From assembly GCA_002496385.1 (NCBI GenBank), contig DAJR01000027.1, forward strand, positions 1,155-65,154: DNA of 64,000 nt, in the 5' to 3' direction. Below are positions 9,335 through 61,871 of the stretch, piece after piece. Source of the stretch: Methanomassiliicoccales archaeon UBA147. Its GTDB lineage: Archaea; Thermoplasmatota; Thermoplasmata; SG8-5. How positions within the stretch are numbered: position 1 is the stretch's first letter; every line of letters begins with the position of its first letter. The translations under genes and the position numbers were made by a program. The notes under the pieces were generated by a model. The model ran no database searches. It was given only the letters and a program-made list of their open reading frames with translations, and was not told the origin of the DNA.

Positions 9335-9490
9335 GGGGCTAGGGGCTTTGCATACAATATGGAATAAAGGGTCTAGGGGCTTTGCATGGAAAATGGAATA
9401 AAGGGGCTAGGGTTTGCTGGCTGTCGTGAACAGCCAGCAAAAAACATATGTTAACAACCCTAGACCCCAGACCCCAGACCCTAGACCCCT
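9335..9490. repeat. Composite intergenic repeat element, copy 1. It has two 34-bp GGG(G/T)CTAGGGG units, a core hairpin, a palindrome and a (CCCYAGA)n arm.
   Basis: Read directly from the sequence. The units are ggggctaggggctttgcat...ggaataaa x2. The core is ggggctagggtt-TGCTGGCTG-tcgtgaa-CAGCCAGCA-aaaa-AACATATGTT-aac-aaccctagaccccagaccccagaccctagacccc. Confidence 0.9.
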
Positions 9491-9589
9491 GATTCACAAA
9501 GACAAACAAACCCTTTCAAGGGTCGGCAGTTTACTTTATCTAAAAATCTGTGCAGATTTTATTATCTCTTGCTTTCGCTGCAAGGCAAG

Positions 9590-9614
9590 AAAAAAAAAGG
9601 GGAGGATTAATCCT
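9590..9614 (-). terminator. Putative terminator of the FtsZ-like gene (palindrome plus T-run)
   Basis: On the minus strand, AGGATTAATCCT (9603-9614) is followed by CCCC and a run of 9 T (9590-9598). This lies 12 nt after the stop codon. Confidence 0.5.
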
Positions 9615-9625
9615 GATTAGTGATT

Positions 9626-11981: not shown

Positions 11982-12094
11982 CTATTAAATACCTATCTGC
12001 TCCTATATCGAAAAGTCCGTATTTAAAAGTTTTGATTGTGAGTAACAGGTCAGGATTCTGATATTTTAAATTGTAGATTTTCGATTTTAGATTT

Positions 12095-12377
12095 TTGTTC
12101 ACAGCTTGCTGTTTTTTCATTTCTTTTTGGATAATGGGGTCTAGGGTCTTTGCTTACAAAATGGATTTAAGGGTCTAGGGTCTTTGCATGCAAAATGGGA
12201 ATAAGGGTCTAGGGTCTTTGGTTGTAAAATGGGATTAAGGGGCTAGGGATTGCTGGCTGTCATGAACAGCCAGCACAAAGCAAATGTTAGCAACTCTAGA
12301 CCCTAGACCCTAGACCCTAGTCCCTAGACCCAGACACATAAAATCGTTATTCAGATACTATTCCAGCGAACTCTTGC
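12095..12377. repeat. Composite intergenic repeat element, copy 2 (long form with conserved flanks)
   Basis: It has three 34-bp gggtctagggtctttg...aa units, then the core hairpin tgctggctgtcatgaacagccagca (12251-12275), then (ccctaga)n at 12301-12331. Its left and right flanks are near-identical to those of copy 3. Confidence 0.9.
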
Positions 12378-13843: not shown

Positions 13844-14998
13844 TCAGCTGATTTTTTCATCCTGGATTTCCAGCTTCATGTCCGCTCCGCAGGATGGGCA
13901 CTTCCCATCGTTCGCCGAGATGCAATCGGCATGCGCCACCCTTCCGCATTCGCACTTCACCGATGGCGAGGCCGGAGAAAGCGGTTTGCCGCAGTGCTGG
14001 CATAGTCCTTTCTTCCGTTGCGGGGATTCTTCCTTGACCGGTTCCCTGTCAAGCACTCCGAAGTACCTGAACATGACCAGCCAGAACACGGTTATCCAGG
14101 CCATGAATATCAATTCGCCGATGTTGTTGTGCGTCCACTGCATGGCCTCCGCGCCGTGATACCTGCCGACAATGATGATGATGGTCATCCTGAGGATGTT
14201 CGCGACCCAGGCAAGGAATATTCCGAGGGCCAGGAGGAGCGCTACCTTCCTGTCCGCCTTCTTATATTCCACGGCAACGAAGGCGATGAATGCCGACACG
14301 AATATCGCGACTGAGTAAAGACCGGTGCATGACAGCCCGATGCTCAGTGGGATCGGGAATCCATCGGGACCGGGGACCTCCATCATATTGTAAATCCGGA
14401 GGCCCGTCATCGGATCTGTGACCGGGGAGACCACGGCTATCCCGAGCAAGTTCGACAGGGCGGCGGTGGGCATGGCCAGTAAGTAGTAGATGAGCGGGGT
14501 GTTGGTGTCGGTCTCGCCTCCGCCCAGGCTCAGCAGGGTCGTCGGTATCACTAGGAAAACGAATAGAAGTATCACGAAAAGGAGGGCGAAGTCCCTCTCG
14601 ACGCGATATTTCGCGGGAATGTAATTGTAAGCGAGAAAGACCGCTGCCAGCACAAGTGCGACATAGTCATTGCTCCCGAGGTAGAATCCGTCCCTGAGGA
14701 ACAGGTTGAACGATGCCACCGCGACCAGCACCGCAATCCCCGCGGCCGGGATGAGCAATTTAAGGCGTCCTTCCAGCGTGACCAGGTTCACAAGGCGGGA
14801 GGCGATGTTGTCTTCCGCTGTTTTCTCTTTGGCAACGGCCTTTTCGCCTTTCGCAGCCCAGAGCAAAGCCCCGATGCCCGCGAGGATGAAAACAATCCCG
14901 ACCAGCCGGCTCATGTGGCTGAGCAATATCGCCAGGTTGAGCCCCCCGAAGAGAAGCACAAGACCGGCGACATACATTACCTTGTCAGCAGTTTTCAT
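13844..14998 (-). CDS. Archaeosortase-family transpeptidase (possibly ArtC-like) with an N-terminal TM extension and a C-terminal cytoplasmic zinc ribbon
   Basis: The protein is polytopic. It carries the conserved Cys/Arg/His triad contexts LSCTGLYS, ANILRMT and WTHNNIGE. The C-terminus is CQHCGKPL...CECGRVAHADC...CPSCG. Confidence 0.7.
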   Translation of the reverse strand: MKTADKVMYVAGLVLLFGGLNLAILLSHMSRLVGIVFILAGIGALLWAAKGEKAVAKEKTAEDNIASRLVNLVTLEGRLKLLIPAAGIAVLVAVASFNLFLRDGFYLGSNDYVALVLAAVFLAYNYIPAKYRVERDFALLFVILLFVFLVIPTTLLSLGGGETDTNTPLIYYLLAMPTAALSNLLGIAVVSPVTDPMTGLRIYNMMEVPGPDGFPIPLSIGLSCTGLYSVAIFVSAFIAFVAVEYKKADRKVALLLALGIFLAWVANILRMTIIIIVGRYHGAEAMQWTHNNIGELIFMAWITVFWLVMFRYFGVLDREPVKEESPQRKKGLCQHCGKPLSPASPSVKCECGRVAHADCISANDGKCPSCGADMKLEIQDEKIS

Positions 14999-15010
14999 TC
15001 AGCACCCCGA

Positions 15011-15901
15011 TCAAAAGAAGTCGGCAAGCCCCTTCCCGAGCTTCATGCCCGGTTTGAATCCCAGAATCTTCTTGGCCTTTGAGATGTCGGCGCTGCTGTG
15101 CAGTATATCGCCCTTGCGGGGTTCCGAATAGCTCACTTCCAGCTCCTTTCCCGAGAGCCTGATGACCTCGGCAGCAAGTTCATTGACTGTCGTGGCCTTT
15201 CCGGTGCCGCAGTTGAATGCCTGGCCCTTCGCATCCGGATTTCCGAGGCACAGCTTCACCATTCCCACGACATCGCTGACGTGGATGAAATCCCTGGTCT
15301 GGCTCCCGTCCCCGTAGATGGTCGGCGCCTCCCCGGCCTTCGCCCTCTCGACGAACCGCGAGATGACTCCGGAGTACGGGGAGTTCGGGTCCTGCCTCTT
15401 GCTGTAAATATTGAACGGGCGGATGCTGGTCACCCCCAATCCGTAGCTTTCCTGGAACGCGAATGCGTAATTCTCCCCAGCCAACTTGCTGACACCGTAG
15501 GGCGAGAGCGGCCTTGTCGGGTGCATCTCGCCGATGGGGACCCGCTCAGGATTGCCGAAAATCGCCGCCGAGGATATGTAAATGAACTGGCCGACCATGG
15601 ACTTGGCGGCCGTTTCCAGCAGGTTCACGGTCCCGAGTATGTTCTCCTTCGCATCGAAGACCGGGTCAGATACCGACCGGTCCACGCTGACCTGGGCGGC
15701 AGTGTGTATGACCGCGTCCCTCCCCCGGCAGAGGTTCATCGAGAGCCGATAATCCCCGATATCTCCGAGGATGTGCTTGGCGCCTTTCACTGGGTGTGCG
15801 GTGGGCTTGAGGTCCAGGCCAGTTATCTCGTGGTCCGCGGACAGTGCCTCGACAAGGTAGGAACCCAGCTGGCCCGATGCGCCGGTGACAAGTATTTTCA
15901 T
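15011..15901 (-). CDS. NAD-dependent epimerase/dehydratase (UDP-sugar 4-epimerase-like SDR)
   Basis: VTGASGQLGSYL is the GxxGxxG motif. The catalytic YxxxK lies in SPYGVSKLAGE. The gene ends 12 nt upstream of the archaeosortase gene start. Confidence 0.85.
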   Translation of the reverse strand: MKILVTGASGQLGSYLVEALSADHEITGLDLKPTAHPVKGAKHILGDIGDYRLSMNLCRGRDAVIHTAAQVSVDRSVSDPVFDAKENILGTVNLLETAAKSMVGQFIYISSAAIFGNPERVPIGEMHPTRPLSPYGVSKLAGENYAFAFQESYGLGVTSIRPFNIYSKRQDPNSPYSGVISRFVERAKAGEAPTIYGDGSQTRDFIHVSDVVGMVKLCLGNPDAKGQAFNCGTGKATTVNELAAEVIRLSGKELEVSYSEPRKGDILHSSADISKAKKILGFKPGMKLGKGLADFF

Positions 15902-15948
15902 AGATGGGAATCCCCTCAGGTATTATTTAAGGATTTTGACAAAAGTAA

Positions 15949-16216
15949 TTGTTCACAGTTTGCTGTTTTTTCATTTCTTTTTGTAACGGGGTCTAGGGTC
16001 TTTGTTCACAAGATGGTGTAAAGGGTCTAGGGTCTTTGCTTATAAAACGGAATAAAGGGGCTTTGTTTGCAAAATGGTATAAAGGGGCTAGGGTGTGCTG
16101 GCTGACTTGAACAGCCAGCAAAAAACAATTGTTACCAACCCTAGACCCTAGACCCTAGCCCCTAGACCCAGACACATAAAATCGTTATTTAGACACCTAT
16201 TCCAATGAACTCTTGC
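15949..16216. repeat. Composite intergenic repeat element, copy 3 (long form)
   Basis: It has the same flanks as copy 2 (ttgttcacag.ttgctgttttttcatttcttttt on the left; cagacacataaaatcgttatt.aga.ac.tattcca..gaactcttgc on the right). The core is tgctggctgacttgaacagccagca, with palindrome AACAATTGTT and (ccctaga)n. Confidence 0.9.
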
Positions 16217-16294
16217 GACAGAAAGCAGGTTTTCCGTGGCACAACTCAACGCCAAATTTTAAAATATAGACTGCTATACAGCGGCGGTGTTTCG

Positions 16295-17340: not shown

Positions 17341-20286
17341 ATGAAAACCCAATTAATCAAAGGAGCTAGTTTTATGACAGCCATGCTGTTCGTCAGCATG
17401 CTGATGGCACCTGTTCTCGCCGCTCCCCTGCTGCCTTTCGACAGGCTTGGGGACACGACCCAGAACAACGCCATTGTATGCAGCTGGATAGACGGCGTGG
17501 AATACGGAAGAGCGACGACAAGCGGAACAGGCTACCTGGACATAAGTACCGCAGGCGACGAGACCGACCAGACAACTGAGAAGACCGGCGGCAACGCAGG
17601 CGATATCATCCAGTACTCAGTCGGCGACCTGACCGGTGCAACCGGCGCGTTCTTTGCAGTAGCCGAGAACGACAACTTCGTCACTGGCAGCAGCTTCACA
17701 GGCGACCTGACCATCGACGCCGCAACGAACCTTCTGAAGATCGACGTCCTGGCATCCCAGTCCACCGTGACGGGACTGCCTGACTACATCTTGATTTACA
17801 ACCCGACAGGCGGCGCAGTCGACGCCTCAACCTATTCCCTGCAAGTCGCAGCTGGATCAGTCCTGGCAATAGCCACAGGCGACATACCGACCGGCCTGAC
17901 AGTGAACAACAACATCAACATTCCGGCAGGCGGCTCACTGGTCATCGACATGACCAGGTGGGGCGGACTCGGAAACGCAAACGCGGTCAAGCTTATCAGG
18001 ACAACAGGATCCCGCGTCGTTGACAGGGTCGAGTACGGCGCAATCGCAGCCGAGCCAGAGAACACGATCATGACCAACGCCGCAAACCCGGCATCCGGCC
18101 AGGAAATCTACAGGATAGGCACCCACCAGGACACGAACCAGTGCGCAGCCGACTTCCAAACAAGGGTGCAGACAGTCGTGAGGGACACAACCCAACCGAC
18201 AGTCCTGTCCACAGTGCCGACGAACACAGCAACCGGCGTCCTGATTACCCAAAGCGTTATCATAACCTTCAGCGAGTCAATGAACACCGGATCATTCACA
18301 TACACCTGCTCGCCGAATCCCGGCGGATGGAACCCTACCTGGAGCACCGTAACCTTTGCAAATGACCGTGTAACACTCACACACACGAATTTCGCCTACA
18401 ACACACTTTACACATTCACGATAACGGCAGCGACCGACCTCGTAGGCAACGCACTGAACCCGACCCCGTACGCATGGACATTCACGACCGAACTCGCACC
18501 CCCGGTGCTTACGACCATGACCATCACGACCGACCCGGTGACAATCACCGATATCTATGTCGGCACGATGCCGGTCAGCGTCCAGGGATACGACCAGTAC
18601 CTCGCACCGATAACCTGCACACCGGTTTGGAGCGATAACTCTGTCGGCACCACATTCATCAACGTAGTACCGGGCAGCCCGGCGACAGCCGACCTCAGCG
18701 CGGACGGCAGCCAAGTGTCCGGAACGTTCACCATCACCGCAACCGACGGAACAGTTTCCGACACCGCGGTCCTGCAGATCAACGCCTACACCCCGGTGCT
18801 TACGACCATGACCATCACGACCGACCCGGTGACAATCTCCGATGTCTATATCGGCACGATGCCGGTCAGCGTCCAGGGATACGACCAGATAGGCGCGACA
18901 ATGGCCTGCACACCGATCTGGAGCGATAACTCTGTCGGCACCACGTTCATCAACGTAGTACCGGGCAGCCCGGCGACAGCCGACCTCAACGCGGACGGCA
19001 GCCAGGCAGCCGGAACGTTCACCATCACCGCAACCGACGGAACAGTTTCCGACACCGCGGTCCTGCAGATCAACGCCTACTTCCCGGTTCTGACGACAAT
19101 CGTCATCACCCCGGACCCGATATCTGTCGCAGCGAGCGGCTCCATCGGAGTCTCGGCACAGGGATACGACCAGATGGTCGCACCCATGGCCTGCACCCCA
19201 GCATGGGCTGACGCATTCGGCGGCGGCTCGTTCTCCGGACAGGTCGCAGGCAGCCCCGCAACCGCAACCTACAACGCAGGCGCAACAGCAGGCGGACCCT
19301 GGATCGATGCAATAACCGCGACCGTTGGCTCGATAGTCGGAGCAGCCGACCTGACAATAACAGGCGGCGGAGCACCACCGGCAACCCAGGTCAACACAGT
19401 CGTTGCAACGCCCCACACGAACGGCGGAGCAGACATCCAGCTTGAGTGGACCGAGATCGGCGACGCGACCTTCTACAACGTGTACGAGAGTGCAGTTGTG
19501 ACTGGAACCGGCTTCAACTTCGGCACCCCGAGCTACGTCGTGCCGGCATCCGGAACTGGCAAGGTAATCTACCAGCTCACAGGTAAGTACGCGGACGCGA
19601 ACACCTACTCATGGGTAGTCAGGGCAGCCAACGGAAACGGCGAGAACACCGACGTTCCCGCAACAGGCGGCAACATGGCCTACAAGCAGATTCGCACATT
19701 CAAGACTGGAACAGGCTCAGTTACACCCGACTTAAACTACCTCGCTCTCCCACTGAAAATAAACATTTCCACCAACGACGCTTCAAGCCTAAGAAACGAC
19801 ATCAGGACTTGGGGCAGCCCGATAACTGGTGTAAATGCAATCGGAACATGGAATTCAGATGGTGGTGCATGGATAGTCAGAACTGGTGTTGGAACCAACT
19901 TCCCGTTACTGCCAGGCGTAGCTTACAGGATTGGCGCGATATTGCCTTCAGTAACCTACAAGATAGTTGGCGCACATGACCAATCTGTAAATGCGTTCAC
20001 CTTTAAAATTGGTACTGGGGCTGTTACGCCAGACTTAAATTATGTTGCGCTTCCATACCACACAACACTAGGCTTCGCAGCAGACCTTAGAACGGACATC
20101 AGAACCTTTGGTAACCCGATAACTGGTGTGAATGCAATCGGCACATGGAATTCAGACGGTGGTGCTTGGATTGTCAGAACCGGAGTTGGAACAAACTTCC
20201 CTCTGGTGCCAGGCGAAGGTTACAGGATTGGCGCAATACTGCCATCTGTAGCATGGACCTGCCCGTTAAGAGTTCCGGGAGCATAA
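17341..20286 (+). CDS. Secreted multi-domain surface protein, 981 aa. Domains: LTD-like, SbsA-type Ig-like, 3x Big-like repeats, FN3, and 2x C-terminal repeats.
   Basis: Signal peptide ...LFVSMLMAPVLAAP. A GGAGG Shine-Dalgarno-like sequence lies upstream. The SbsA-like segment is TQPTVLSTVPTNTATGVLITQSVIITFSESM. Internal repeats were read directly from the sequence. Confidence 0.85.
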   Translation: MKTQLIKGASFMTAMLFVSMLMAPVLAAPLLPFDRLGDTTQNNAIVCSWIDGVEYGRATTSGTGYLDISTAGDETDQTTEKTGGNAGDIIQYSVGDLTGATGAFFAVAENDNFVTGSSFTGDLTIDAATNLLKIDVLASQSTVTGLPDYILIYNPTGGAVDASTYSLQVAAGSVLAIATGDIPTGLTVNNNINIPAGGSLVIDMTRWGGLGNANAVKLIRTTGSRVVDRVEYGAIAAEPENTIMTNAANPASGQEIYRIGTHQDTNQCAADFQTRVQTVVRDTTQPTVLSTVPTNTATGVLITQSVIITFSESMNTGSFTYTCSPNPGGWNPTWSTVTFANDRVTLTHTNFAYNTLYTFTITAATDLVGNALNPTPYAWTFTTELAPPVLTTMTITTDPVTITDIYVGTMPVSVQGYDQYLAPITCTPVWSDNSVGTTFINVVPGSPATADLSADGSQVSGTFTITATDGTVSDTAVLQINAYTPVLTTMTITTDPVTISDVYIGTMPVSVQGYDQIGATMACTPIWSDNSVGTTFINVVPGSPATADLNADGSQAAGTFTITATDGTVSDTAVLQINAYFPVLTTIVITPDPISVAASGSIGVSAQGYDQMVAPMACTPAWADAFGGGSFSGQVAGSPATATYNAGATAGGPWIDAITATVGSIVGAADLTITGGGAPPATQVNTVVATPHTNGGADIQLEWTEIGDATFYNVYESAVVTGTGFNFGTPSYVVPASGTGKVIYQLTGKYADANTYSWVVRAANGNGENTDVPATGGNMAYKQIRTFKTGTGSVTPDLNYLALPLKINISTNDASSLRNDIRTWGSPITGVNAIGTWNSDGGAWIVRTGVGTNFPLLPGVAYRIGAILPSVTYKIVGAHDQSVNAFTFKIGTGAVTPDLNYVALPYHTTLGFAADLRTDIRTFGNPITGVNAIGTWNSDGGAWIVRTGVGTNFPLVPGEGYRIGAILPSVAWTCPLRVPGA
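18502..19374 (+). repeat. Intragenic tandem repeat, 3 x 291 bp (97-aa Ig-like units)
   Basis: Units start at 18502, 18793 and 19084. Units 1 and 2 differ at 13 of 97 aa by my manual alignment. Unit 3 is diverged. Confidence 0.9.
19699..20283 (+). repeat. Intragenic tandem duplication, 2 x about 303 bp (C-terminal domain pair)
   Basis: FK(T/I)GTG(S/A)VTPDLNY...ITGVNAIGTWNSDGGAWIVRTGVGTNFPL.PG..YRIGAILPSV is repeated at 19699 and 20002. Confidence 0.85.
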
Positions 20287-20497: not shown

Positions 20498-23455
20498 ATG
20501 AACACCAACAGAGAAAAACGAGAAAATAAAATAGAGGAGATGAAAAATATGAAGACGAAAATGATAGCGACTATATTAGCGCTTGGAATGGTGGCAGGTG
20601 CCTTTGCCATGATGGCCACACCTGTGAATGCAGCTGCTTACCACGGTTTCTGGTTTGCCGAAATAGATAATGGCGAGGCCAGATGTCGCGATTCCAACGA
20701 TGGCGCAGTACCAAACGGCGGGGTTTCTCGCTTTTGGAAAGCCACAGAACCACAATATCATCAACAGGGCTTTAACGTTGCGCTTGGAACACCATGGGTA
20801 GGAATGAGCGATTGGATTGGAGCAAACGGCCAATCGAGTACCGATTATGTGGGAATGATGCAGACAACAGGCCTTGCAGGTCCTACAGATGTAGCAGCAG
20901 GGGATTCAATCTACTCAGTTATTGAGTTAGATGCTACTGTTGCAGCAGAACCAAGAACCTACTACTCAACAATCGATGGCCCCGCTGGATTCGGATGGAC
21001 TGTCAGAGGTACAGTACCAAACGGTTACCTCTGGGCAGGCAACCACAATGCAATAGCATTGTCCGATGAGGAAATATTCCCATCTGGATTCCCCGCAACA
21101 ACCTTCTTCGAACTGTACAAGATGCCGGCAGTGACCTTCACTGACGACACAACCAACAACTGGGCATTCCCGGCACACGAGGCAGACGTTCCCGGAAACA
21201 CCGCATCCTGCATCGAGTCCTGGGTACTGATGGAAGGCGCCGCAGCAGGCGACAACGACGGGCCCTGGACACAGGTTGGCGTTACACAGCCCTACGGAAC
21301 AGCCATAACCTACGACAGGACACCTGACTTCTACTACTGCGTCCGCATAATATGGGACGGAGCGGTAAACAGCGCAGTGCTGAGCCAGCCCCTCCAGAAC
21401 ATCGAGGGACCACCCACGACATTCGCACCAGAGGCATCTGCCCTGCTCTCGACACCCGCGACACACAACGGCAACACAGTGACCGAGTATGTGACCATAA
21501 CCGCGACAATAACCGAGTCAATCGCAGATACAACCCCCGACACGATCAACGGAGCACAGCTCCGCGTTGACGGCGGCGCACCTGTAGCAATGACTGCGGT
21601 AGATGGCGCATTCGATGGCGAGGCCTCAGAGGCAGTTACCGGACAGTTCGACTTCCCGAGCCCATTCACGGAGGGCGTGCACACCTTTGAAGTACACGGC
21701 TCCGACACGGGCGACGGCTACAACGCGACCTGGATGAGCGGCACATTCACCGTGACCGACACCACAGCACCGGTTGCAGCATGGGGCATGGTTCCCGGCG
21801 CAACAGCCTACATCGGTAACAACCTGGTCTTCACAGCAACCTACGAGGACTTCAGCAACTACCAGGCAGCAGGCTCATACCTGACCTGGTCACTGAACGG
21901 CGTGCCACAGGCTAACGTTCCCCTCGTCGGAGTACAAACCGGATGGGGAAGCTACCTGTACACAGCGACAGCGACAATCCCGACCGGCGGCTTCGTCGCA
22001 GGCGATGTAATCACCTACAATGGACAGGTAACCGCAGCATCCGTAGGACCCCAGACGACAGTCCTCGGCGCAGGCGGACCGATCACGATGGACGACCCAC
22101 CGACATTCCTGGACCCGTTCCCGGTGTACGGATATGTATATCTGTATGACGGAACCTTCGCAGGCGGATACGCCCCGACCGCACAGGTCGGAGCAGCCGT
22201 GTCAGTTAGCTGGTACGATGTGTCCATCGGAGCAGTCAACACAGCCAACGGCGTTACGAACGCCCTCGGTCAGTTCAGCATCGACATACACAACGGAATG
22301 GTAGCCGACCCGCTGGCATACGGCATCGAGATAACCTCGACCGCAACAACCGGCAACATCGGATACAACTGGACGGCAATAGCTGACTGGATGGCGCCGG
22401 GCGGCGTCTGGATGAACGTACTGTGCGGTGTACCGTACGATGTCATAATCACATCCCCGCTCGCACTACCAGTGCCCAACGTGTACGCATCCATAGGGTT
22501 CCCGGTAACCTACCAGATAGTGGATATCAACGGCGTGCTTGCACCCGGATACTTCACCTTCAATGACGGACCGATGCACTGGCACAGCAACGACACACTG
22601 TTCGTACCTCCGGCAGCAGTCCAGTTCGATGGAACTGCATCCGCAACACCCGGCACATACACAGACAACCTCGTCCTATGGACACCCGGATTCATCTACG
22701 TCAACGTCACAGAGAACGATGTGTCAGACTTCTACCTGACACCGTTCGATGCGATAGCCTACCAGATTGGCGGCGTTGCAGTACCCGGATATCTGAAGGA
22801 CTGGGCCAACCTGACAGTTTTCGTACTGGCAGGCGGCTTTGACTGGAACTGCGTAGCATTCGGATGGAACATCGTTTCCGCACCGCAGGACCCGCTATCC
22901 AAGGGAACTGACGCTATCTTCGATGCAGGCGACGCACTACAGGTCTGCTGGAACCACAACGGCACCAACGACAACGCTCTGCAGATTGCAGAGAGGCAGG
23001 TCGACGGCAGCTACATCACTTGGACCATACCCGACGGCGAGGGTGGATTCCCCATCGACGGAGTGCACTCGTACTGGGTATACGCGGAAGTGGCACAGAT
23101 CGTGACCTTCCTTGCTCTGGACTACGTCGCAGCAGGCTCCAATGTCCTCGCTGCAGCGGCAGGCTGGAACATGGTCGGGTTCACACACAACTACGCTACC
23201 TGGTTAGTAATCCCGACATCGGCCATGTTCATGGACGCGACGATTGACGCGGACCTTGCGGGCGTGGACAAGATAATCGCAACCGAGTGGGACTACAGCA
23301 CACAGATGTACGTGAGCTACGTAGAACAAGCTGGCTTCCCGGGAATGCCCGAGAAACTCTGGAGCTGGGACTTCACCTACTCCAACCAGCCCGGTAACGG
23401 ATTGTTCCTCTGGCTCGAAGCCGGTGTAACAATAGAGTTCAACGTCCTGTTCTAA
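20498..23455 (+). CDS. Secreted surface protein, 985 aa. It shares a 234-aa module with the giant protein and ends with a duplicated C-terminal domain.
   Basis: GGAGG lies 4 nt upstream of ATG 20498, with alternative starts at 20540 and 20549. Signal peptide MIATILALGMVAGAFAMMATPVNA. The shared module is at 22115-22816. Confidence 0.85.
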   Translation: MNTNREKRENKIEEMKNMKTKMIATILALGMVAGAFAMMATPVNAAAYHGFWFAEIDNGEARCRDSNDGAVPNGGVSRFWKATEPQYHQQGFNVALGTPWVGMSDWIGANGQSSTDYVGMMQTTGLAGPTDVAAGDSIYSVIELDATVAAEPRTYYSTIDGPAGFGWTVRGTVPNGYLWAGNHNAIALSDEEIFPSGFPATTFFELYKMPAVTFTDDTTNNWAFPAHEADVPGNTASCIESWVLMEGAAAGDNDGPWTQVGVTQPYGTAITYDRTPDFYYCVRIIWDGAVNSAVLSQPLQNIEGPPTTFAPEASALLSTPATHNGNTVTEYVTITATITESIADTTPDTINGAQLRVDGGAPVAMTAVDGAFDGEASEAVTGQFDFPSPFTEGVHTFEVHGSDTGDGYNATWMSGTFTVTDTTAPVAAWGMVPGATAYIGNNLVFTATYEDFSNYQAAGSYLTWSLNGVPQANVPLVGVQTGWGSYLYTATATIPTGGFVAGDVITYNGQVTAASVGPQTTVLGAGGPITMDDPPTFLDPFPVYGYVYLYDGTFAGGYAPTAQVGAAVSVSWYDVSIGAVNTANGVTNALGQFSIDIHNGMVADPLAYGIEITSTATTGNIGYNWTAIADWMAPGGVWMNVLCGVPYDVIITSPLALPVPNVYASIGFPVTYQIVDINGVLAPGYFTFNDGPMHWHSNDTLFVPPAAVQFDGTASATPGTYTDNLVLWTPGFIYVNVTENDVSDFYLTPFDAIAYQIGGVAVPGYLKDWANLTVFVLAGGFDWNCVAFGWNIVSAPQDPLSKGTDAIFDAGDALQVCWNHNGTNDNALQIAERQVDGSYITWTIPDGEGGFPIDGVHSYWVYAEVAQIVTFLALDYVAAGSNVLAAAAGWNMVGFTHNYATWLVIPTSAMFMDATIDADLAGVDKIIATEWDYSTQMYVSYVEQAGFPGMPEKLWSWDFTYSNQPGNGLFLWLEAGVTIEFNVLF

Positions 23456-23558: not shown

Positions 23559-23670
23559 CATCTTAGAGATATACGTTAGTCATCTATAAACAGTCAACAA
23601 AGCATCAATCGTATCGCCGGGCAGCATACAGTCTCTGGGCTAGTTGGCTGAGAGTGCAAAGGTGACAGAC

Positions 23671-24570
23671 ATGTCAAAGAAGGACCTTGAACGACAAGGC
23701 GATGGAGGAGGCGGGACAAAGCAGTGTCCGATATGCGGAGCCGAGAACGCTCCCGATGCATCAGAGTGCACGGGCTGCAGTTTCACGTTCGAAGCGGACG
23801 ATATCGTTGAGACGACCTCAGCGGCACCCGGTTCCGGCTCGACCGTTTGCAATGACTGCGGAGCGGAACTGCCCGCGGGAACAACCTCATGCTTCATTTG
23901 CGGGGCGGAAATAGGAACCCCTTCAACCGAAACAATCCCCGAGCCACCGGCCGAGGAAACGCCCCCGGAAGAAGAATGGGATGCGGGCGTTGTCGGCGGG
24001 GACGCTGAGCCGGCTCCGGAGGAAGTCACCGAAGAACCGGAAGAGATTCCCGAGCAACCGACGCCCGAATTGCCAGAGCTCGGAGAGAATGAGTTTCACT
24101 GTCCCTCATGCGGCAAGCCGATCGCCATGGGGACGTCCAAATGCCCGGAATGCTGGGCAGAGATACCCGAGATGATACGCTGCCCCAAATGCGACCATAC
24201 CATACCATTGAGTTCTGAGGTTTGCGCCGAGTGCTTCGCGAAGCTGAAGAACGGGGTTCTGATCGAAGAGCCGCCAGAGGAAATGCCCGAACCGGCAGAA
24301 TTGCCTGCGGAAGACCTGAACGGCGGCGAGCTGGAAGAGCACATCGACGAGGTTACCGAGATATATGGCGTTGAATGTCCGTTCTGCCATGAGATTGCCA
24401 ATCCAGGCGACGACATCTGCCCTGAGTGCGGAATGCCTCTCATCGAGCGCGAGGAACCGGCGGAAGAGGAACTCGCCCCCCGGAAGAAGCCGGAGAGGGA
24501 CTGGTACCGCATAATCGCCATCGGCGTGGTTGCAGTTCTGCTCGTTTCCGGTATACTGCCGTTCGCGATA
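23671..24570 (+). other. Predicted cytoplasmic head of the giant protein: five CxxC...CxxC zinc ribbons in acidic/proline-rich linkers, then a TM helix (24502-24570)
   Basis: The five ribbons are CPICGAEN..CTGC, CNDCGAEL..CFIC, CPSCGKPI..CPEC, CPKCDHTI..CAEC and CPFCHEIA..CPEC. The TM helix is WYRIIAIGVVAVLLVSGILPFAI. Confidence 0.75.
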
Positions 24571-27500
24571 CCGCTTCCCCATGTCGACAGGCTCCAGATT
24601 CGCATCGACGGCGCCTTCGGCGACTGGGACCAGGTATCAGGCCAGAACGATTCGGTACTCAGCACGCTCCCGGCCAATGTGGACATCGTGCAGAGCAAAA
24701 TGCTCTCTGACGCGTTCAATATCTATTTCTTTATGCAGGTGAGAGGCCAGGTTTTCGGAGACCAGGAAGGCGATACTGCCAGGATATTCATCGATACCGA
24801 CCAGGACCCCGCGACAGGCTACAGCATAATGGGCTTGGGAGCGGATTACCAGATACGCGTTTTCGGCCACGGCGGCGACGTCGAGAGCTCCTCATGCCTT
24901 GCATTTGACGATTCAAAGGCGCAGAATGATTTCAACGGCTTTGTTTCAGCATCGCCATCGGTACCTCATGCGCCCGAAGCGGTCCAGGATGCGGCCAAGT
25001 TCGAAGTGCGGGCTACGCTTGGGGACATCGGCATAACGCAAACCACCCCTGTGACCGCGGTGTTCTACATGGCGGATTCTCACGGCAACCGGGATTACTC
25101 GGACCTTCCGATTTCCAGCCTTGGCAGCGTCCTGTTTGTGAGGCAATCCAGCATCGCGCCCGCAAACGGCCTGATGACCGGCTCGGCCTCGCCGGCGATT
25201 TCGCTTGAGATTCATGCCATCGGGCAATCGGTTGACATAAACGGCATCACTGTGCCGAACTGCGCTCCGGGAACCTTTGTCAGGACGATGGCGAACGGCA
25301 CATCCCAGACCTTATCTCTGACAACCAGCGTCACCAGCCTGAGCGCCGGCTCACTGGTCGTGAGGGAAGCCGCCCCGGATGATTTCGATGTATCAGGTGC
25401 GCATGTGGTGGTCACCGGACAGGGCTCGTACTCGTATGCCGTGATGGCACCCGCTCTGATAGGCATTGACGGTGCATTCGCCGACTGGAACGGGAAAGGC
25501 ACGACCAACAGTGACAGGATTGACGACCAGCTTTCCAAGAACGGCATCGACTCGATTGACGATGCGGGACTGGACATGGTCAGCCAGACCACAGCGCGCG
25601 AGAACAATCAGCTAAACATCCTCGTGCAGACGAACGGCACGATGCTTGCTGGCATGTGGGTACCCGAGATAGAGGAAGCATATGTTGACACGGGCGCGAA
25701 CACAAGGTCGGAAGCGACCAAACCCGATTACACTTACACCGAGCCAGAGGTCTCCAAGACAAGGGCTCCGAACATCCAGAGGCCGACCGTGAAATCGGCC
25801 AAGACAGGCGAAGGCGCGGTGAACGTTTACCTGGACACGGACAACGACACCTCAACCGGATACTCTATCGAAGGAAGGGGCGCAGACTACCTGGTCAAGA
25901 TAAAGGGCCAGAATGGAAGGGTCACCGCCACAAGCATTTCCATATTCTCGGGCTCGGACCGGAATATGCCGAGCTGGACCCTCCAGGCCGGCCTTCCCCT
26001 GGGCGCGTCATCGGGCTCCGGTGTTGAGATCGGAATTCCCCTCGGGCTCTTCACGGGCATCACCCCGAACACAAGCGCGGTGATCCAGCTTGTCGACTGG
26101 AACCTCAACGGAGACGTCTCGGATATCTCAATGTGGGATGTTTTCGAGACCGGTACCAGGGCGGGAACCAGGGCGGACCCGGGTCTCCCCGGCTACGGCC
26201 ACCTTATGGGAACTCTCCTGACCTCCGGAAATGAATTCGTGCCAGGGGCAACCTTGGTACTTAAGGATTTAACTGGACGTGCCACCACCCGAATAACTGT
26301 CGAGAACACAATCGATAGCTATTCTATTGCCCAGGAAGTCTCGAAGGGGCTTCAGGTGAACATGTATGCAGTCAACAATACGCTCTACGGTGCAAACTCA
26401 ACGACATTGACCAACGACAAGACTTTGGCCAAATGTAATATCATGATGGGCAACCCCATACCGGCCGCAGCACCGACCGGGTTGGAGGCGAAGGTCTTTG
26501 GCGCTATTGGTGTGCGTCTCACATGGACGACAGGGGCCACTCCCACTTCTTTTAATATCTTCAAGACAACCAACACCACGACCTCTGCCGGCGATGTGAT
26601 GGGCAGGTATTACGGCATAAGCAGGTTGACCGGCATCTCCGGAACTGCCACGGAGTTCATAGACACCAACGTGGCCAATAACACGGTTTACTATTATTTC
26701 ATAGAATCGGTCACAGGCGCTCAGGTGCATTATTCCCAGGAGGTCAGCGTCACAGTAAATTACTCCGCCGTTCCAGTCATCACTCATCAACCGATCGCCG
26801 ATTGCACCGCATCCGTGGTGACTGTCAAAGCGACCGTCACGGATGATTCAGGTATTAAATTTGCCTCCGTGTTCTACAGGAAGGGCTCTTCCGGCGCCTG
26901 GACATCCGCGCCGATGACCCTGAGTTCGGGCTCTCCCTCAAACGGGAATTGGGTGGCAGGCATCCCCGTCGAGATGACGGACATCAACCAGCTCTATCAG
27001 TATTACCTGACGGCCGATGACGGCTCGAACCTCGGCATGTTCGGCGGGTCCGGCGCACCCGGATACCCGACGCCTTTCGGTTACAATGCCTCGTATGCAC
27101 CCAGCAACCCATTCCCAGTGTACGGTTATGTTTACCTGTATGACGGTACCTTTGCGGGCGGATTCGCACCTGTCCCGCAGCCCGGAGCGACCGTGACAGT
27201 GAGCTGGTACGACTTCTCAATGGCGGCGGTGAACACGACCTCGGATGTCACGAACGCCCTCGGGCAGTTCAGCATCGACCTCCACAACGGCGGGGTCGGC
27301 GACCCTCTGGGATACGGGATCGAGATAAGCTCGACCGCATCGACCGGCAATACAGGATACAACTGGACCGCCATAACCGACTGGAACATGACGGGCGGCA
27401 TCTGGATGAACGTGCTCTGCGGTGTCCCATACGATGTGATAATTACGAATCCTCTGGCTCTGCCAGTGCCCGCAGTCTCTGCCAACGTGCCATTCCCTGT

Positions 27501-30500
27501 GACCTACCGGATAGTTGACATCAATGGCGTGCTAGCGCCCGGATACTTCACCTTCGCTGACGGTCCGATGAACTGGCACAGCGGCGACCCGCTCTTCGTT
27601 TCCCCGCCCGATGTGTATTTCGACGGAACATCATCCACAACCCCGGGCACCTGGACAGGCAACCTGTTGTTGCAGACCCTGGGCGCTACCTACATCAACG
27701 TCACCGAGAACCACCTGTCCGATTTCTACCTGACGCCCTTCGACGCGATAGCCTACCAGATAGGCGGCGTTGCGACGCCCGGATACCTGAAGGACTGGGC
27801 CAATCTGACGCTAACGGTAGTGGGTCAATCGGTGTTCAATCTCACGAAGTGGGCACCGGCATTCGCGAACCCCGGAGAAATATTCTCGTACTGGCTGAAC
27901 TACTCCAACGAAGGCACCCAGTGGATGTATAACGTGAGCATCTCCGAATCATATCCCCCGGGCGTGACATTCATCAGTTCCATCCCGCCGCCGACAATAG
28001 GCACGGATTACTGGTTCATCGGGACCATAGCCCCGGGCGGCTCCAACTCCATACAGATATTCGTGTCAGTGAACATGAATGCGACCGGGACACTTACAAA
28101 CACAGCCAGCATAACCGCTCCATCAATAACAACTGTATGGGCTTTCGCAAATACGACTGTTATTAATCCGTTGATGACTGTGAAGAAATCCGCGCCTGCC
28201 ACCGCAAATGCTGGCGAGACGATGATGTACACTATCCGATACTGGAACAACGGCACCGACTGGGCGCAGAATGTCTGGATATACGAGGATTACCCGATGA
28301 ATGTCAATGTCCTGAACGCGACACCCATGCCGACGGCCTGGCCGGGGACATGGTACATAGGCGACCTAGCCCCAGGAGCAACCGGAACTATATTCGTCAA
28401 TGTCACGGTGAATGCCGGATTCAGCGGAACGCTGTACAACGAGGTTCTCCTGACATATGAGAACGATGTGGTTTCCATGCCCGATGCCCGCGCCTGGGCC
28501 AACACAACGGTGAACAATCCCCTGTTAAATGTCGATAAAACCGCCCCGGCGACCGCCAACTCCGGCGCCCAGATTGTCTATGCGATTCACATATGGAACT
28601 CCGGGACCGCCACAGCATTTGATGTTGTTGTGACCGACACGCTGCCGGCCGGGACAACATATGTCCCTGTCGCAACGCCTCCACCCTCCTCCGTGGTCGG
28701 CCAGACCCTTACATGGACCCTCCCTCCCATCGCGCCCGGGGCATCTGTGTGGATATACGTCACAGTCCAGGTCAGCGAAACCGCGACCGGAACAATCTCG
28801 AACACAGTCAGCGTGGTTTACGAGGACGCCGCAGGCCAGGAACTCGGCCCGGTAACTGACACTGCAACATTCGCAATAGCTGACCCGTTGCTCACGATTC
28901 AGAAGGTCGGACCGGCCTACGCCAACTCCGGCCAGACCATAACATACACGATATGGGTGAACAACACTGGCAGCGCACCCGCATACAACATTACAGTTAC
29001 GGAAACATACCCCGCGGACGCGACGTTCGTCAGTTCCAACCCGCCGCCCAGCTTCGGCAACAATGTCTGGAACATCTCGTTCCTGGCTGCGCACGGCGGC
29101 ACCCAGATCTCTGTCACCGTGCTGATAAGCGCCACCCCGGGCACCGTATGGCAAAACAACACTGTCATCGCCGATTACGAGGACGGCAGCAACGAGGACC
29201 AGGCGGACGTTACGGATGTCGTCACGACCATCCTGAACAATCCGCAGCTCACTCTTGCCAAGACCGCTCCGGAATTCGCCAACCCGGACCAGGACATCAC
29301 ATACACCGTCACGGTCACAAATATCGGAAGCGAGCCGGCTTACAATGTCATTGTCACCGAGAGTTATCCGGCAGGCGTGTCTTTCGTCAGCGCCAACCCG
29401 GCCCCGACCACCCCGATCAATGTTTGGAACCTCGGAAGCATCCCTGTGGGCGGAAGCATAACGATCGTCATAACCGTACACATCAACGCGGGAACCACTG
29501 GCCTGCTGACCAACACCGTGGCAGCTGATTACGAGAGCAGCAGCGGTCAGGATTACCATGTTACCGCCTACGACACCACGATGGTGACATGGCCCGTGAT
29601 GAACATCTGGAAAGATGGACCGGCAAATTCCACTGCCGGCAGCACGATAATGTACACGATTCACTACCAGAACCTTGGCTCCGACACAGCTTACAATGTG
29701 ACGATAACAGAAACCTATCCGGCCGATACCACATTCCTCAATGCCAACCCGACGCCCACAGTCGGTAACAACGTATGGGTCATCCCGTCTGTCGCCCCCG
29801 GCACTGGCGGAGTGATATTCGTCAATGTGACCATCAGCTCCACGGCCACAGGAATGCTCGTGAACAGCATCAGCGCCATCTACAAAAACACGGACAACCA
29901 GACAATGCCGGAAATCACCAATGAGACCTACACGTTCCTCACCGGCCCCTGGATGAACCTTGAAAAGACAGGGCCGGCGACCGCGAATACCGGCGAGACA
30001 GTAATCTATACTTTGCATTACTGGAACTCGGGCGATGATACAGCATACAACGTGAACATCACAGAAATTTACCCGATAGAGGTTACCTTCGTGAGCGCGA
30101 ACCCGCCTCCGACATACGGCAACAACATATGGCTCATCCCGACCGTGGCACCGGGCGTCCATGGTTGGATAAACATCACGGTGACGATCAATGACGGCGT
30201 GACCGGCACAGTAACCAACTATGTGAACCTGAACTACCGGAACGACGCAGATGTTCAGCTCCCGGTCGAAACGGGGAACTGGACCATAATCATTCTCGAC
30301 CCGCTGATGATTATTGAGAAAGTGGGTCCGAGCGAGGCGAACCCCGGACAGGTAATAATGTATACTATTACTTATCAAAACATAGGCCTCGGAGCCGCGT
30401 ACAACGTCGTCATCACAGATACGCTGGATCCGGGCGTTTCCTATGTTTCATCATCCCCGGCCGGAGCATTGGCCGGTCAGGTCTTGACCTGGAACATCGG

Positions 30501-61108: not shown

Positions 61109-61460
61109 CGGGGAGGGTGAAGAGTTGTCCGTATTAACATTTTGGTCTAATTCTAATTCGGACTTCAATCGCTTTTCCCGCAACCTGTGGCAACCCCAGT
61201 TGCCTCATGGTCGCAACTGGAACTGAGATATATTTACTGCATAGATGCCGGGAACGCTCAGCCTTTCAGGGCTGGGATGAATCGATGAATTAAGACAGAA
61301 TCAATGTCCAACCATATTTCATCGAGAGAACTGCTCCGACCACATCAACTCGGATTCGAAGGAGCAGTGCGAATCGGCATGACCAGTAACATGAGATATG
61401 CCGTTGCATGCCGTACTCATGCAATCCAAGCAAATCGAATGATTTGTCATCTTCTGCAGA

Positions 61461-61541
61461 GGGGCTAGGGTTTGCTGGCTATCGTGAACAGCCAGCATAA
61501 AACATATGTTACCAACCCTAGACCCTAGTCCCTAGACCCCC
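61461..61541. repeat. Composite intergenic repeat element, copy 4 (core only)
   Basis: ggggctagggtt-TGCTGGCTA-tcgtgaa-CAGCCAGCA-taa-AACATATGTT-acc-aaccctagaccctagtccctagaccccc. Confidence 0.9.
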
Positions 61542-61871
61542 AGATTCCAAATAATTCAGACTGGCTTCGATGAATCAGTCATTCAACCGCCCCATGCTAA
61601 ACTTCCAGTCCGGTGCAAATGCCATCCCCTTCAAGGGCGGATAGTTTGCCAAAAATGAAGAACCGTGATTCCTTGGAATTCTCTCCTACATGCTGTCTCC
61701 ATTGCCAAGTTCTAGCTAAAGGTTGCTGTTGACGAATTATATCAATTATGGAGTTTCTCAATCACGGTATCAACCTTGGCATTGGATTCCCCTACTGACG
61801 AAGATTTTATAAACCTTCACGCGCTACAAGTTCAGGAAATATCTACAGGCTGACTATTGGAGAAACCTGAT

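What the first reader, a model, noticed from the sequence alone, without database searches (positions are those of the whole stretch)
12095..12377. A four-copy composite intergenic repeat family with inverted GGGTCTA/CCCTAGA arms, a conserved hairpin and a covarying palindrome
The copies are at 9335-9490, 12095-12377, 15949-16216 and 61461-61541, all in the same orientation.

The common core, in order, is:
- a left arm GGGGCTAGGGT;
- a hairpin TGCTGGCTG-N7-CAGCCAGCA;
- a 10-bp palindrome AACAWWTGTT;
- a right arm AACCCTAGACCC followed by further (TAGACCC) heptads, which are the reverse complement of the left arm.

The hairpin stem is invariant except for one base in copy 4, while its loop varies (tcgtgaa, tcatgaa, acttgaa). 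The palindrome is AACATATGTT in copies 1 and 4 and AACAATTGTT in copy 3, so the change preserves self-complementarity. It is degraded in copy 2.

Copies 1-3 carry 2-3 extra tandem 34-bp units that repeat the left arm (gggtctagggtctttgc.t.caaaatgg.ataa). Copies 2 and 3 also share about 40-bp left and right flanks.

All four copies lie upstream of a minus-strand gene start, and three of them lie in divergent promoter regions. No transposase is present.

Inference: this is a MITE-like or regulatory/structural element family, or a small structured RNA.
Basis: seen in the sequence. Interest (0 to 1): 0.65.

Follow-up and report, generated by a model that had tools for sequence, protein, structure and literature searches.

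The report
Mosaic hairpin repeat family in an archaeon
The four-copy intergenic repeat is real and is most likely a small non-coding mobile (MITE-like) element of a Thermoplasmata archaeon, built from inverted 7-base repeats around a hairpin; it is a new archaeal variant of known repeat types, not a new kind of system.

Summary
Four same-orientation copies share an 80-nt core that is 89-93% identical: GGGGCTAGGG arm, 9-bp hairpin, 10-bp palindrome, then (TAGACCC)n. Copies 1-3 also carry 34-nt tandem units. No Rfam family matches.

The "covarying palindrome" is not supported statistically. The gene-orientation remark is trivial for the three divergent sites.

The evidence points to a MITE-like mosaic repeat.
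- Another species (UBA280) is about 74% identical in syntenic genes. It carries a 93%-identical copy at an unrelated site (upstream of mcm) and a diverged copy upstream of Pcc1.
- The same intergenic sites in relatives are either empty or hold elements of the same architecture with different heptads. Two of these have ~22-nt terminal inverted repeats. One has a perfect 9-bp target-site duplication.
- The shared flanks of copies 2 and 3 correspond to these inverted-repeat ends.
- Conspecific strains differ in 34-nt unit number. One has a replaced interior between identical flanks.

The arms resemble the G-rich heptamer repeats known in Xanthomonas and Nostoc. More than 120 metagenome contigs carry similar inverted (GGGNCTA)n arrays.

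No transposase, transcript or binding protein was identified. Function beyond selfish spread is unproven.

The parts
9335..9412 (+). Copy 1: tandem 34-nt units (2.3 copies), each beginning GGG(G/T)CTAGGG(G/T)C
   Evidence: TRF period 34; the repeat finder family D18. Conspecific strains L148 and L149 carry 4 units here.
9402..9490 (+). Copy 1 core: left arm 9403-9414, hairpin 9415-9439, palindrome AACATATGTT 9443-9452, right arm and heptads 9456-9490
   Evidence: (D20). The right arm is a canonical G4 motif on the minus strand, 9458-9489.
9491..9535 (+). Copy 1 right flank 'B' (GATTCACAAAGACAAACAAACCCTTTCAAGGGTCGGCAGTTTAC). It is shared with the UBA280 copy at an unrelated locus. On the minus strand it reads as a small hairpin followed by a T-rich tail.
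   Evidence: Pairwise alignment of copy 1 with the L011 copy runs through this flank. It is a terminator-like hit on the minus strand at 9524-9509.
12041..12095 (+). Older element end at site 2: TIR-like GTAACAGGTCAGGATTCTGA (12041-12060), then AT-rich heptads (ATTTTAG x4.7, 12063-12095)
   Evidence: Match to the TIR consensus of relatives, score 14, p<0.0005 by shuffling. Aligns to the L144 site-2 element. TRF.
12095..12377 (+). Copy 2 (the finding): left flank A 12095-12136; three 34-nt units 12137-12238 (TRF array to 12248, overlapping the core arm); core 12238-12335 (hairpin 12251-12275, degraded palindrome 12279-12288, heptads 12292-12335); right flank A 12336-12377
   Evidence: Identical in conspecific strains L148 and L150. 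Alignable sequence in UBA280 resumes right after 12377.
15945..16216 (+). Copy 3: TIR-like left end GTAATTGTTCACAGTTTGCTG (15945-15965); units 15989-16089; core 16083-16173 (hairpin 16096-16120, palindrome AACAATTGTT 16124-16133); right flank ending ...GAACTCTTGC (16216). Flanking near-repeat GACAAAAG (15938-15945) / GACAGAAAG (16217-16225).
   Evidence: TIR tests: left p=0.002, right p=0.0175. In strain L148 the interior is replaced while the flanks are 100% identical.
61460..61541 (+). Copy 4: bare core without units or TIR-like ends (left arm 61461-61472, hairpin 61473-61497 with one stem mismatch, palindrome 61501-61510, heptads 61514-61541)
   Evidence: Identical in all conspecific contigs that span or reach it. 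Lies where relatives encode a 172-175-aa zinc-finger-like gene; a weak remnant is at 61168-61263 on the minus strand.

Best explanation
The four copies belong to a family of small, non-coding, hairpin-forming mosaic repeats of MITE type in a Thermoplasmata (Methanomassiliicoccales-labelled) lineage.

The ancestral form has ~22-nt terminal inverted repeats (consensus RTAAGNRTTCAGTNWWWTGAAG). These enclose a left heptad array, a central hairpin (TGGCT..AGCCA) and a right heptad array complementary to the left. It inserts with an 8-9-bp target duplication.

The 'G-type' interior seen in the window is (GGGKCTA)n, hairpin, AACATATGTT, (TAGMCCC)n. It is the subfamily recently active in this species and in UBA280.

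Inferred steps:
- Copies spread in trans through an unidentified transposase. They often land in or beside older copies.
- Copies are afterwards homogenised by gene conversion.
- Their 7-nt and 34-nt arrays grow and shrink by slippage.
- Effects on neighbouring genes are side effects, not the reason the element exists. Such effects could include stops in all six frames, a long hairpin or cruciform, and a G-quadruplex motif upstream of promoters.
For: Shown:
1. An 80-nt non-repetitive core is 89-93% identical at four unlinked sites.
2. UBA280 is about 74% identical to the window in syntenic genes. It carries a copy 93% identical over 102 nt at a non-orthologous site upstream of mcm.
3. Site occupancy in relatives is patchy. 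L140 and L152 are empty at the window sites their sequence covers (L140: sites 1-3; L152: site 3). L214 is empty at site 4. UBA280 is filled at sites 1 and 4 only. The L144 lineage is filled at sites 2, 3 and 4.
4. The UBA280 site-1 element has TIRs (17/22 identical) flanked by the perfect direct repeat CCCTTGACC. The L144 site-2 element has the same TIRs and an 8/10 direct repeat.
5. Copy 3's ends and an outer end at copy 2 match this TIR consensus (p=0.002, 0.0175, <0.0005).
6. Heptad type differs between elements but the arms stay complementary. Own-type scores are 11-22; cross-type scores are <=9.
7. The hairpin is kept, with compensatory differences, in three subfamilies.
8. Conspecific strains have 2 versus 4 units at copy 1. 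At copy 3 one strain has a replaced interior between identical flanks.
9. Short-read contigs end at the elements.
10. Flanking genes share no function: mcm, Pcc1, an epimerase, an RHH gene and an unknown gene.
11. There are stops in all six frames, so the element has no coding capacity.
Against: - No transposase, and no full-length IS with these TIRs, was found in the window or in any fetched locus.
- Copies 1 and 4 and the UBA280 mcm copy have no TIRs and no target duplication. The G-type core therefore also moves, or is copied, by some other route that I did not establish.
- Only one perfect target duplication supports transposition.
- Recurrent occupancy of the same intergenic sites could reflect ancient residence plus concerted evolution, which would also fit a retained function.
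- The genome-wide copy number is unknown.
Confidence: 0.6

Rival explanations
1. An architectural or cis-regulatory DNA element kept for a host function. In this reading the arrays of heptads and the two palindromes bind a protein, or extrude as a cruciform or G-quadruplex, upstream of archaeal promoters. They would tune or insulate the flanking genes, which are often divergent.
For: - All copies lie 90-350 nt upstream of gene starts, and three lie between divergent genes.
- At copy 3 the element's TIR-like left end (15945) lies within ~10 nt of the likely TATA box of the epimerase gene, read directly.
- Every copy carries a canonical G4 motif on the minus strand. These are 4 of the 7 such motifs in 64 kb.
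- The same intergenic sites are occupied in several lineages.
- Arm complementarity and the hairpin are preserved across subfamilies.
- From my own knowledge: RHH proteins such as omega of pSM19035 are known to bind heptad arrays.
Against: - Heptad sequence differs completely between elements at orthologous sites, so no single binding protein fits.
- The RHH genes and the whole gene block are conserved in relatives with empty sites.
- Unit number and interior vary between strains of one species.
- The neighbouring genes share no functional theme.
- There is no covariation among G-type copies.
Confidence: 0.2
2. A purely local product of slippage. In this reading these are G-rich heptameric simple-sequence repeats arising in place, like the GGGNATC repeats of Xanthomonas and Nostoc, with no mobility.
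For: - Many different heptad arrays occur in intergenic DNA of this clade.
- More than 120 metagenome contigs carry (GGGNCTA)n inverted arrays with unrelated spacers.
- Unit numbers vary between strains.
- Rehm et al. 2015 describe the same behaviour in bacteria (PMC4692102).
Against: - Slippage cannot create the same 45-nt non-repetitive centre (hairpin plus palindrome) and the same 20-nt unit spacers at five unlinked sites in two species.
- It does not explain the TIRs with a target duplication.
Confidence: 0.1
3. A small structured non-coding RNA gene, or an RNA cis-element, whose arms, hairpin and palindrome are RNA helices.
For: Predicted folds are much more stable than shuffled sequence on both strands (z -4.3 to -7.6).
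Against: - No Rfam match at gathering or permissive thresholds.
- No covariation among six distinct cores.
- Both strands fold equally well, as expected of DNA palindromes.
- Unit numbers vary between strains.
- No archaeal TATA-like promoter is evident within the element when read directly.
Confidence: 0.05

Closest known systems
MITEs (miniature inverted-repeat transposable elements), including archaeal ones such as the Sulfolobus SM elements and the Haloquadratum PATEs (from my own knowledge)
   Same: Small (80-340 nt), non-coding, multi-copy and intergenic. Family members have ~22-nt terminal inverted repeats and an 8-9-bp target duplication. Presence or absence differs between relatives. 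Insertions can be nested.
   Different: The interior is made of co-varying inverted heptad arrays around a hairpin. The currently successful G-type interior also occurs without TIRs or duplications. No parent IS is known.
G-rich heptameric repeats GGGNATC / GGGGA(C/T)T of Xanthomonas and Nostoc (Rehm et al. 2015, PMC4692102)
   Same: 7-nt units with a G3-4 tract, four or more units (a G-quadruplex motif), intergenic location, frequent convergent (inverted) pairs able to form stem-loops, and variable unit number between close relatives.
   Different: The heptad here is GGGKCTA and contains CTAG. The host is an archaeon. The arrays flank a conserved non-repetitive centre and 34-nt units. The window copies favour divergent promoter regions, which the bacterial repeats avoid.
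Small dispersed repeats (SDR) of Nostoc punctiforme (Elhai et al. 2008, Genome Res 18:1484; cited from my own knowledge, paper not held in the library)
   Same: A short hairpin-forming unit (about 25 nt) embedded in tandem heptamer arrays or inside mini-transposons, with nested copies and compensatory stem changes between subfamilies.
   Different: The SDRs are cyanobacterial and unrelated in sequence. Independent insertion of the hairpin itself is not shown here.
REP / BIME / REPIN elements of proteobacteria
   Same: Mosaic intergenic palindromic repeats assembled from modules. They form hairpins and are homogenised within a genome.
   Different: There is no GTAG/CGTC tag next to the palindrome, no RAYT gene was seen, and the arms are tandem heptads instead of one imperfect palindrome.

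Membership tests
MITE | Small size, no coding capacity, several dispersed copies | tested here: met
   Copies are 81-283 nt. Stops occur in all six frames. There are 4 copies in the window plus copies in UBA280.
MITE | Terminal inverted repeats | tested here: inconclusive
   Clear in related elements (UBA280 site 1, L144 site 2). Significant but degenerate at copy 3 and at the outer end of copy 2. Absent at copies 1 and 4.
MITE | Target-site duplication | tested here: inconclusive
   Perfect 9-bp CCCTTGACC at UBA280 site 1. 8/10 at L144 site 2. An imperfect repeat at copy 3, GACAAAAG / GACAGAAAG. None at copies 1, 2 or 4.
MITE | Autonomous IS with the same ends in the same or a related genome | not testable with these tools
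   No transposase in the window. A viral-contig scan gave only single, unpaired hits, none matching the TIR profile at E<=1e-3.
G-rich heptameric SSR (Rehm et al. 2015 type) | Tandem 7-nt units with a G3+ tract, at least 4 units, intergenic, often in convergent pairs | tested here: met
   TRF period-7 arrays of 4.7-5.9 copies. A G4 motif in every copy. The left arm is complementary to the right.
G-rich heptameric SSR (Rehm et al. 2015 type) | G-quadruplex formation in vitro | not testable with these tools
   Only the sequence motif was checked.
Any Rfam RNA family | Covariance-model match | tested here: not met
   0 hits at gathering score in the window and in 20 loci. Only chance-level hits at E up to 10.
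REP / REPIN | 20-40-nt palindrome with a GTAG or CGTC tag; associated RAYT gene | tested here: not met
   The sequence beside the hairpin is CTAGGGTT / AAAAAC, with no tag. No Y1-transposase domain was found among the ORFs scanned.
Archaeal replication origin (ORB repeats) | Inverted ORB boxes around an AT-rich unwinding region next to orc1/cdc6, conserved in position | tested here: not met
   No orc1/cdc6 nearby. There are four copies in 52 kb. Relatives have empty sites.
CRISPR array | Identical repeats separated by unique spacers | tested here: not met
   The 20-nt 'spacers' of the 34-nt units are themselves conserved between units and between copies.

The most novel reading that the evidence does not exclude
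The G-type core may be a self-targeting micro-element, an archaeal counterpart of the cyanobacterial SDRs. In this reading it inserts into pre-existing heptad arrays or MITE hairpins without TIRs or duplications. A hairpin-templated process would then keep the two arms complementary while the heptad 'flavour' turns over genome-wide. The resulting CTAG-rich, G4-capable cruciform may have been co-opted as a bidirectional insulator upstream of promoters.
Probability: 0.15. Interest if true: 0.6.

Novelty: new variant of a known kind. Interest (0 to 1): 0.4.

Why it matters
**Possible archaeal first.** I know of no description of heptamer-array hairpin repeats in Archaea. This family links two things so far studied separately in bacteria: MITEs, and G-rich heptameric repeats whose function is still open.

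**A tractable example of repeat turnover.** The family shows how dispersed repeats change over time. The same intergenic sites carry different heptad types in different lineages, and the two arms always change together.

**Practical consequences.**
- The element breaks short-read assemblies of this uncultured lineage.
- It marks strain-level variation in unit number.
- It concentrates CTAG in a genome that otherwise avoids it. Annotators should therefore not mistake it for a regulatory RNA or an operator.

Tried and rejected
- **Rfam:** searched at gathering and permissive thresholds on the window and on 20 loci. Nothing was found. No tRNA or tmRNA genes.
- **Genome-collection scan** with arm plus hairpin: one true hit (UBA280) and 10 apparently unrelated hits, all in bacterial genomes (not inspected).
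- **First metagenome scan** with the same motif: zero hits. That collection evidently lacks the JGI samples that do contain the element, so this zero is weak evidence.
- **Viral-contig scans** for the core, the arms, the TIR and the 34-nt unit: the core, TIR and unit scans found nothing related; the arm pattern hit three contigs with the widespread inverted heptad arrays.
- **Literal sequence search in papers:** zero hits.
- **Elhai 2008:** could not be read.
- **Exact-protein look-up of the 105-aa Pcc1 ORF:** failed because the start codon was wrong. Prefoldin was used instead.
- **Covariation test on six cores:** no signal.
- **Replication origin:** considered and rejected. There is no orc1/cdc6, there are several copies, and relatives have empty sites.
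- **CRISPR:** rejected because the spacers are conserved.
- **C/D-box sRNA:** rejected because there are no box motifs.
- **Operator for the adjacent RHH proteins:** rejected because the RHH genes are conserved where the element is absent.
- **A mobile island bounded by copies 1 and 3:** rejected because the enclosed gene block is syntenic in relatives that lack the copies.
- **Searching for element copies through spurious ORFs:** not possible, because CTAG in every heptad closes all six frames.

Full report

Yes. Direct reading and the repeat finder show an 80-nt core at 9402-9481, 12238-12317, 16083-16162 and 61460-61539. All four are on the + strand and are 89-93% identical.

- The hairpin TGCTGGCTG-N7-CAGCCAGCA occurs four times, against 0.06 expected. 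Heptad matches number 18, against 0.08 expected.
- TRF finds 34-nt arrays (2.3, 3.3 and 2.1 copies) and 7-nt arrays (4.7-5.9 copies) in copies 1-3.
- Copies 2 and 3 align end to end over about 285 nt, including about 40-nt flanks.

**2. What does not hold?**

- A formal pair count on six distinct cores gives one double change, the central TA->AT of the palindrome. It shows no covariation beyond shuffles (391/500).
- Three of the four sites lie between divergent genes. For these, 'upstream of a minus-strand gene' is automatic.
- The predicted folds are very stable on both strands (z -4.3 to -7.6). That is what a DNA palindrome gives.
- Rfam has no match.

**3. Host and setting**

The window is archaeal. 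It encodes prefoldin, Pcc1, archaeosortase C, a tubulin/FtsZ-family protein, an EMC3/YidC-like protein and a 6304-aa CLIPPER-repeat surface protein. Its closest public relatives are labelled Thermoplasmata or Methanomassiliicoccales.

The neighbours of the four copies are:
- an unknown 439-aa gene and the tubulin-like gene;
- an RHH gene and a 169-aa gene;
- an epimerase and PRPP synthase;
- Pcc1 and a TPR gene.

No transposase domain was found.

**4. Copies elsewhere**

It has:
- one 34-nt unit;
- the same hairpin and the AACATATGTT palindrome;
- the heptads;
- the same about 45-nt right flank as copy 1.

It is 93% identical to copy 3 over 102 nt. It lies between the 3' end of a surface-protein gene and the start of mcm, a locus unrelated to any window site.

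UBA280 is only about 74% identical to the window in syntenic genes. The element is therefore far better conserved than its surroundings.

**5. Orthologous sites**

The gene block around copies 1-3 is syntenic in five related lineages, and the block around copy 4 in three lineages.

The G-type core is absent from all the syntenic loci for sites 1-3. The sites are not all empty, however.

| Lineage | Site 1 (tubulin / 438-aa gene) | Site 2 (RHH gene) | Site 3 (epimerase / PRPP synthase) | Site 4 (upstream of Pcc1) |
|---|---|---|---|---|
| Window | G-type (copy 1) | G-type (copy 2) | G-type (copy 3) | G-type (copy 4) |
| UBA280 | about 200-nt element, CGGGAAG heptads | empty | element absent; an extra 273-aa ORF lies here | diverged G-type |
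| L144 lineage | not resolved | TAGATTT and GTGAAWA heptads | TAGATTT heptads | about 300-nt AT-type element |
| L140 | empty | empty | empty | not sampled |
| L152 | not sampled | not sampled | empty | not sampled |
| L214 | not sampled | not sampled | not sampled | empty (45-nt spacer) |

Details of the filled sites:
- **UBA280 site 1.** The ends are GTAAGAGTTCAGTGTTTTGAAG ... CTTCATTTCACTGAATGCTTAC, which are 17/22 inverted. They are flanked by the perfect direct repeat CCCTTGACC. Inside are left heptads (TTCGGGA CTCGGGA AAAGGGA), a hairpin containing TGGCTG..CAGCCA, and right heptads (CGCTTCC x3).
- **L144 lineage, sites 2 and 3.** These have the same ends but TAGATTT and GTGAAWA heptads. 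Site 2 is flanked by an 8/10 direct repeat.
- **Empty sites.** L140 and L152 are empty at the sites their sequence covers: L140 at sites 1-3, L152 at site 3. The spacers are 94-164 nt at sites 2 and 3, and no element signature was found at L140 site 1.
- **Site 4.** The L214 site is empty. UBA280 has a diverged G-type element (26.6 bits, E 2e-7) with two 34-nt units, the hairpin ggcTGGCTTgtccggacaAAGCCAgt and no palindrome. The L144 lineage has an AT-type element of about 300 nt.

**6. Link to the window copies**

- The left end of copy 3 (GTAATTGTTCACAGTTTGCTG) and its right end (rc GCAAGAGTTCATTGG) match the TIR consensus (p=0.002 and 0.0175).
- A further end at 12041-12060 matches better still (p<0.0005). 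It is followed by AT-rich heptads that align to the L144 site-2 element.
- Copy 2 is therefore a G-type element nested in, or abutting, an older element.
- Copies 1 and 4 show no such ends.

**7. Arms change together**

Across subfamilies the heptad sequence differs completely, but each left arm pairs best with its own type of right arm. Scores are 11-22, against <=9 across types.

The central hairpin keeps TGGCT..AGCCA. It shows paired differences between the three subfamilies: G-C versus T-A at the sixth pair, and GC/GC versus AA/TT outside it. These were read directly. The sample is small. DNA-level palindrome maintenance could explain this as well as selection could.

**8. Behaviour within the species**

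Three JGI contigs are 98-99.5% identical to the window and carry copies 1-3 at the same sites.
- Copy 2 is identical.
- Copy 1 has four units instead of two.
- Copy 3 has 100% identical flanks but a different interior. The units are reshuffled, the loop is TCGTGAA not ACTTGAA, the palindrome is AACATATGTT not AACAATTGTT, and there is one heptad fewer. This interior matches no window copy exactly, so further copies exist elsewhere in the genome.
- Copy 4 is identical in the six conspecific contigs that span or reach it.
- Short-read contigs end at the elements.

**9. Copy 4 and a lost gene**

Relatives encode a 172-175-aa zinc-finger-like protein between the TPR gene and Pcc1. The window has a 764-nt gap there. 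Only a weak C-terminal remnant with two stops remains, at 61168-61263 on the minus strand (E 0.0095 in a six-frame search). Copy 4 lies inside the former gene. This is suggestive, not proven.

**10. The wider class**

These are inverted (GGGNCTA)n ... (TAGNCCC)n arrays with unrelated spacers, mostly in high-GC contigs.
- They abut gene 3' ends: 93 of 107 adjacent ends lie within 30 nt.
- They are least common between divergent genes: 11, against 42 tandem and 23 convergent.
- The array's own TAGs inflate the first figure.

This matches the published behaviour of GGGNATC repeats in Xanthomonas and Nostoc, which are intergenic, often in convergent pairs, G4-forming in vitro and variable in number (PMC4692102). 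The window arms are of this kind by sequence type. Homology is not implied.

**11. Other properties**

- Every copy carries a canonical G4 motif on the minus strand. These are 4 of the 7 such motifs in the window.
- CTAG is the most depleted 4-bp palindrome in the window (46 observed, 247 expected). Twenty-five of the 46 lie in the 788 nt of the elements.
- Every copy has stops in all six frames.

**12. Verdict**

The best reading is a MITE-like mosaic repeat family with internal, co-varying heptad arrays. Its G-type subfamily has been recently active in this species and in UBA280 (confidence about 0.6).

- **Shown:** the anatomy; the conservation against background; patchy site occupancy; TIRs and one clean target duplication in family members; strain-level turnover.
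- **Inferred:** transposition in trans; preference for older copies; gene conversion; slippage.
- **Not resolved:** how the TIR-less copies arose; the transposase; any host function.

It is a new archaeal variant of known kinds, and of moderate interest.

Noticed in passing
whole window; elements at 9335-9490, 12095-12377, 15949-16216, 61461-61541: CTAG is the most depleted 4-bp palindrome in the window (46 observed, 247 expected; O/E 0.14-0.23 in relatives). Despite that, 25 of the 46 sites sit in the 788 nt of the four elements.
   Followed up: partly
L012-L134 (metagenome and viral contigs): More than 120 contigs, mostly high-GC, carry inverted (GGGNCTA)n-spacer-(TAGNCCC)n arrays hard against gene 3' ends. 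Some share a GGGAAGAGCGCTCTTCCC centre. I found no description of this CTAG-type heptamer array in the literature searched.
   Followed up: partly
window 61109-61871: A 764-nt gap where three relatives encode a 172-175-aa zinc-finger-like protein. A weak, stop-containing C-terminal remnant lies at 61168-61263 on the minus strand. This suggests gene loss around copy 4.
   Followed up: partly
window 23644-42558 (+): A single ORF of 6304 aa with about 350-nt internal repeats, conserved as a 5255-6275-aa protein with CLIPPER (PF01345) hits in relatives. It sits downstream of two ~980-aa genes, one with a Big_5 Ig-like domain, and near the archaeosortase C gene.
   Followed up: no
window 18500-19097: A 291-nt tandem repeat (2.1 copies, 92% identical) inside the 981-aa Big_5 gene. 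Related genes in L141 and L144 also hold long tandem repeats (315 and 288 nt).
   Followed up: no
window 22113-22798 and 27107-27792: Two about 690-nt segments are 77-78% identical. One lies in the 985-aa gene and the other near the start of the giant gene, which indicates a shared paralogous domain.
   Followed up: no
L141 about 15375-15420 and 14995-15050: UBA280 carries a direct duplication of about 45 nt (ggggatgccgggYactttccctggctcacgctgaccagg). This sequence is the conserved hairpin downstream of the tubulin-like gene. The two copies bracket the segment that holds the site-1 element.
   Followed up: no
L141 8178-8999: UBA280 has an extra 273-aa ORF with no Pfam hit between PRPP synthase and the epimerase. 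This is exactly where the window has copy 3.
   Followed up: no
window 9560-9625 and orthologous positions in L140, L141, L144: The sequence AAAAAAAAGGGGAGGATTAATCCTGATT...CTAGAATCTCTGGAA around the 3' end of the tubulin-like gene is almost invariant across lineages that are otherwise 70-75% identical.
   Followed up: no
L154 and L142 (JGI sample 3300001580): One metagenome holds both the window species (99.4% identical) and the UBA280 species. The two hosts of the G-type element therefore co-occur.
   Followed up: no
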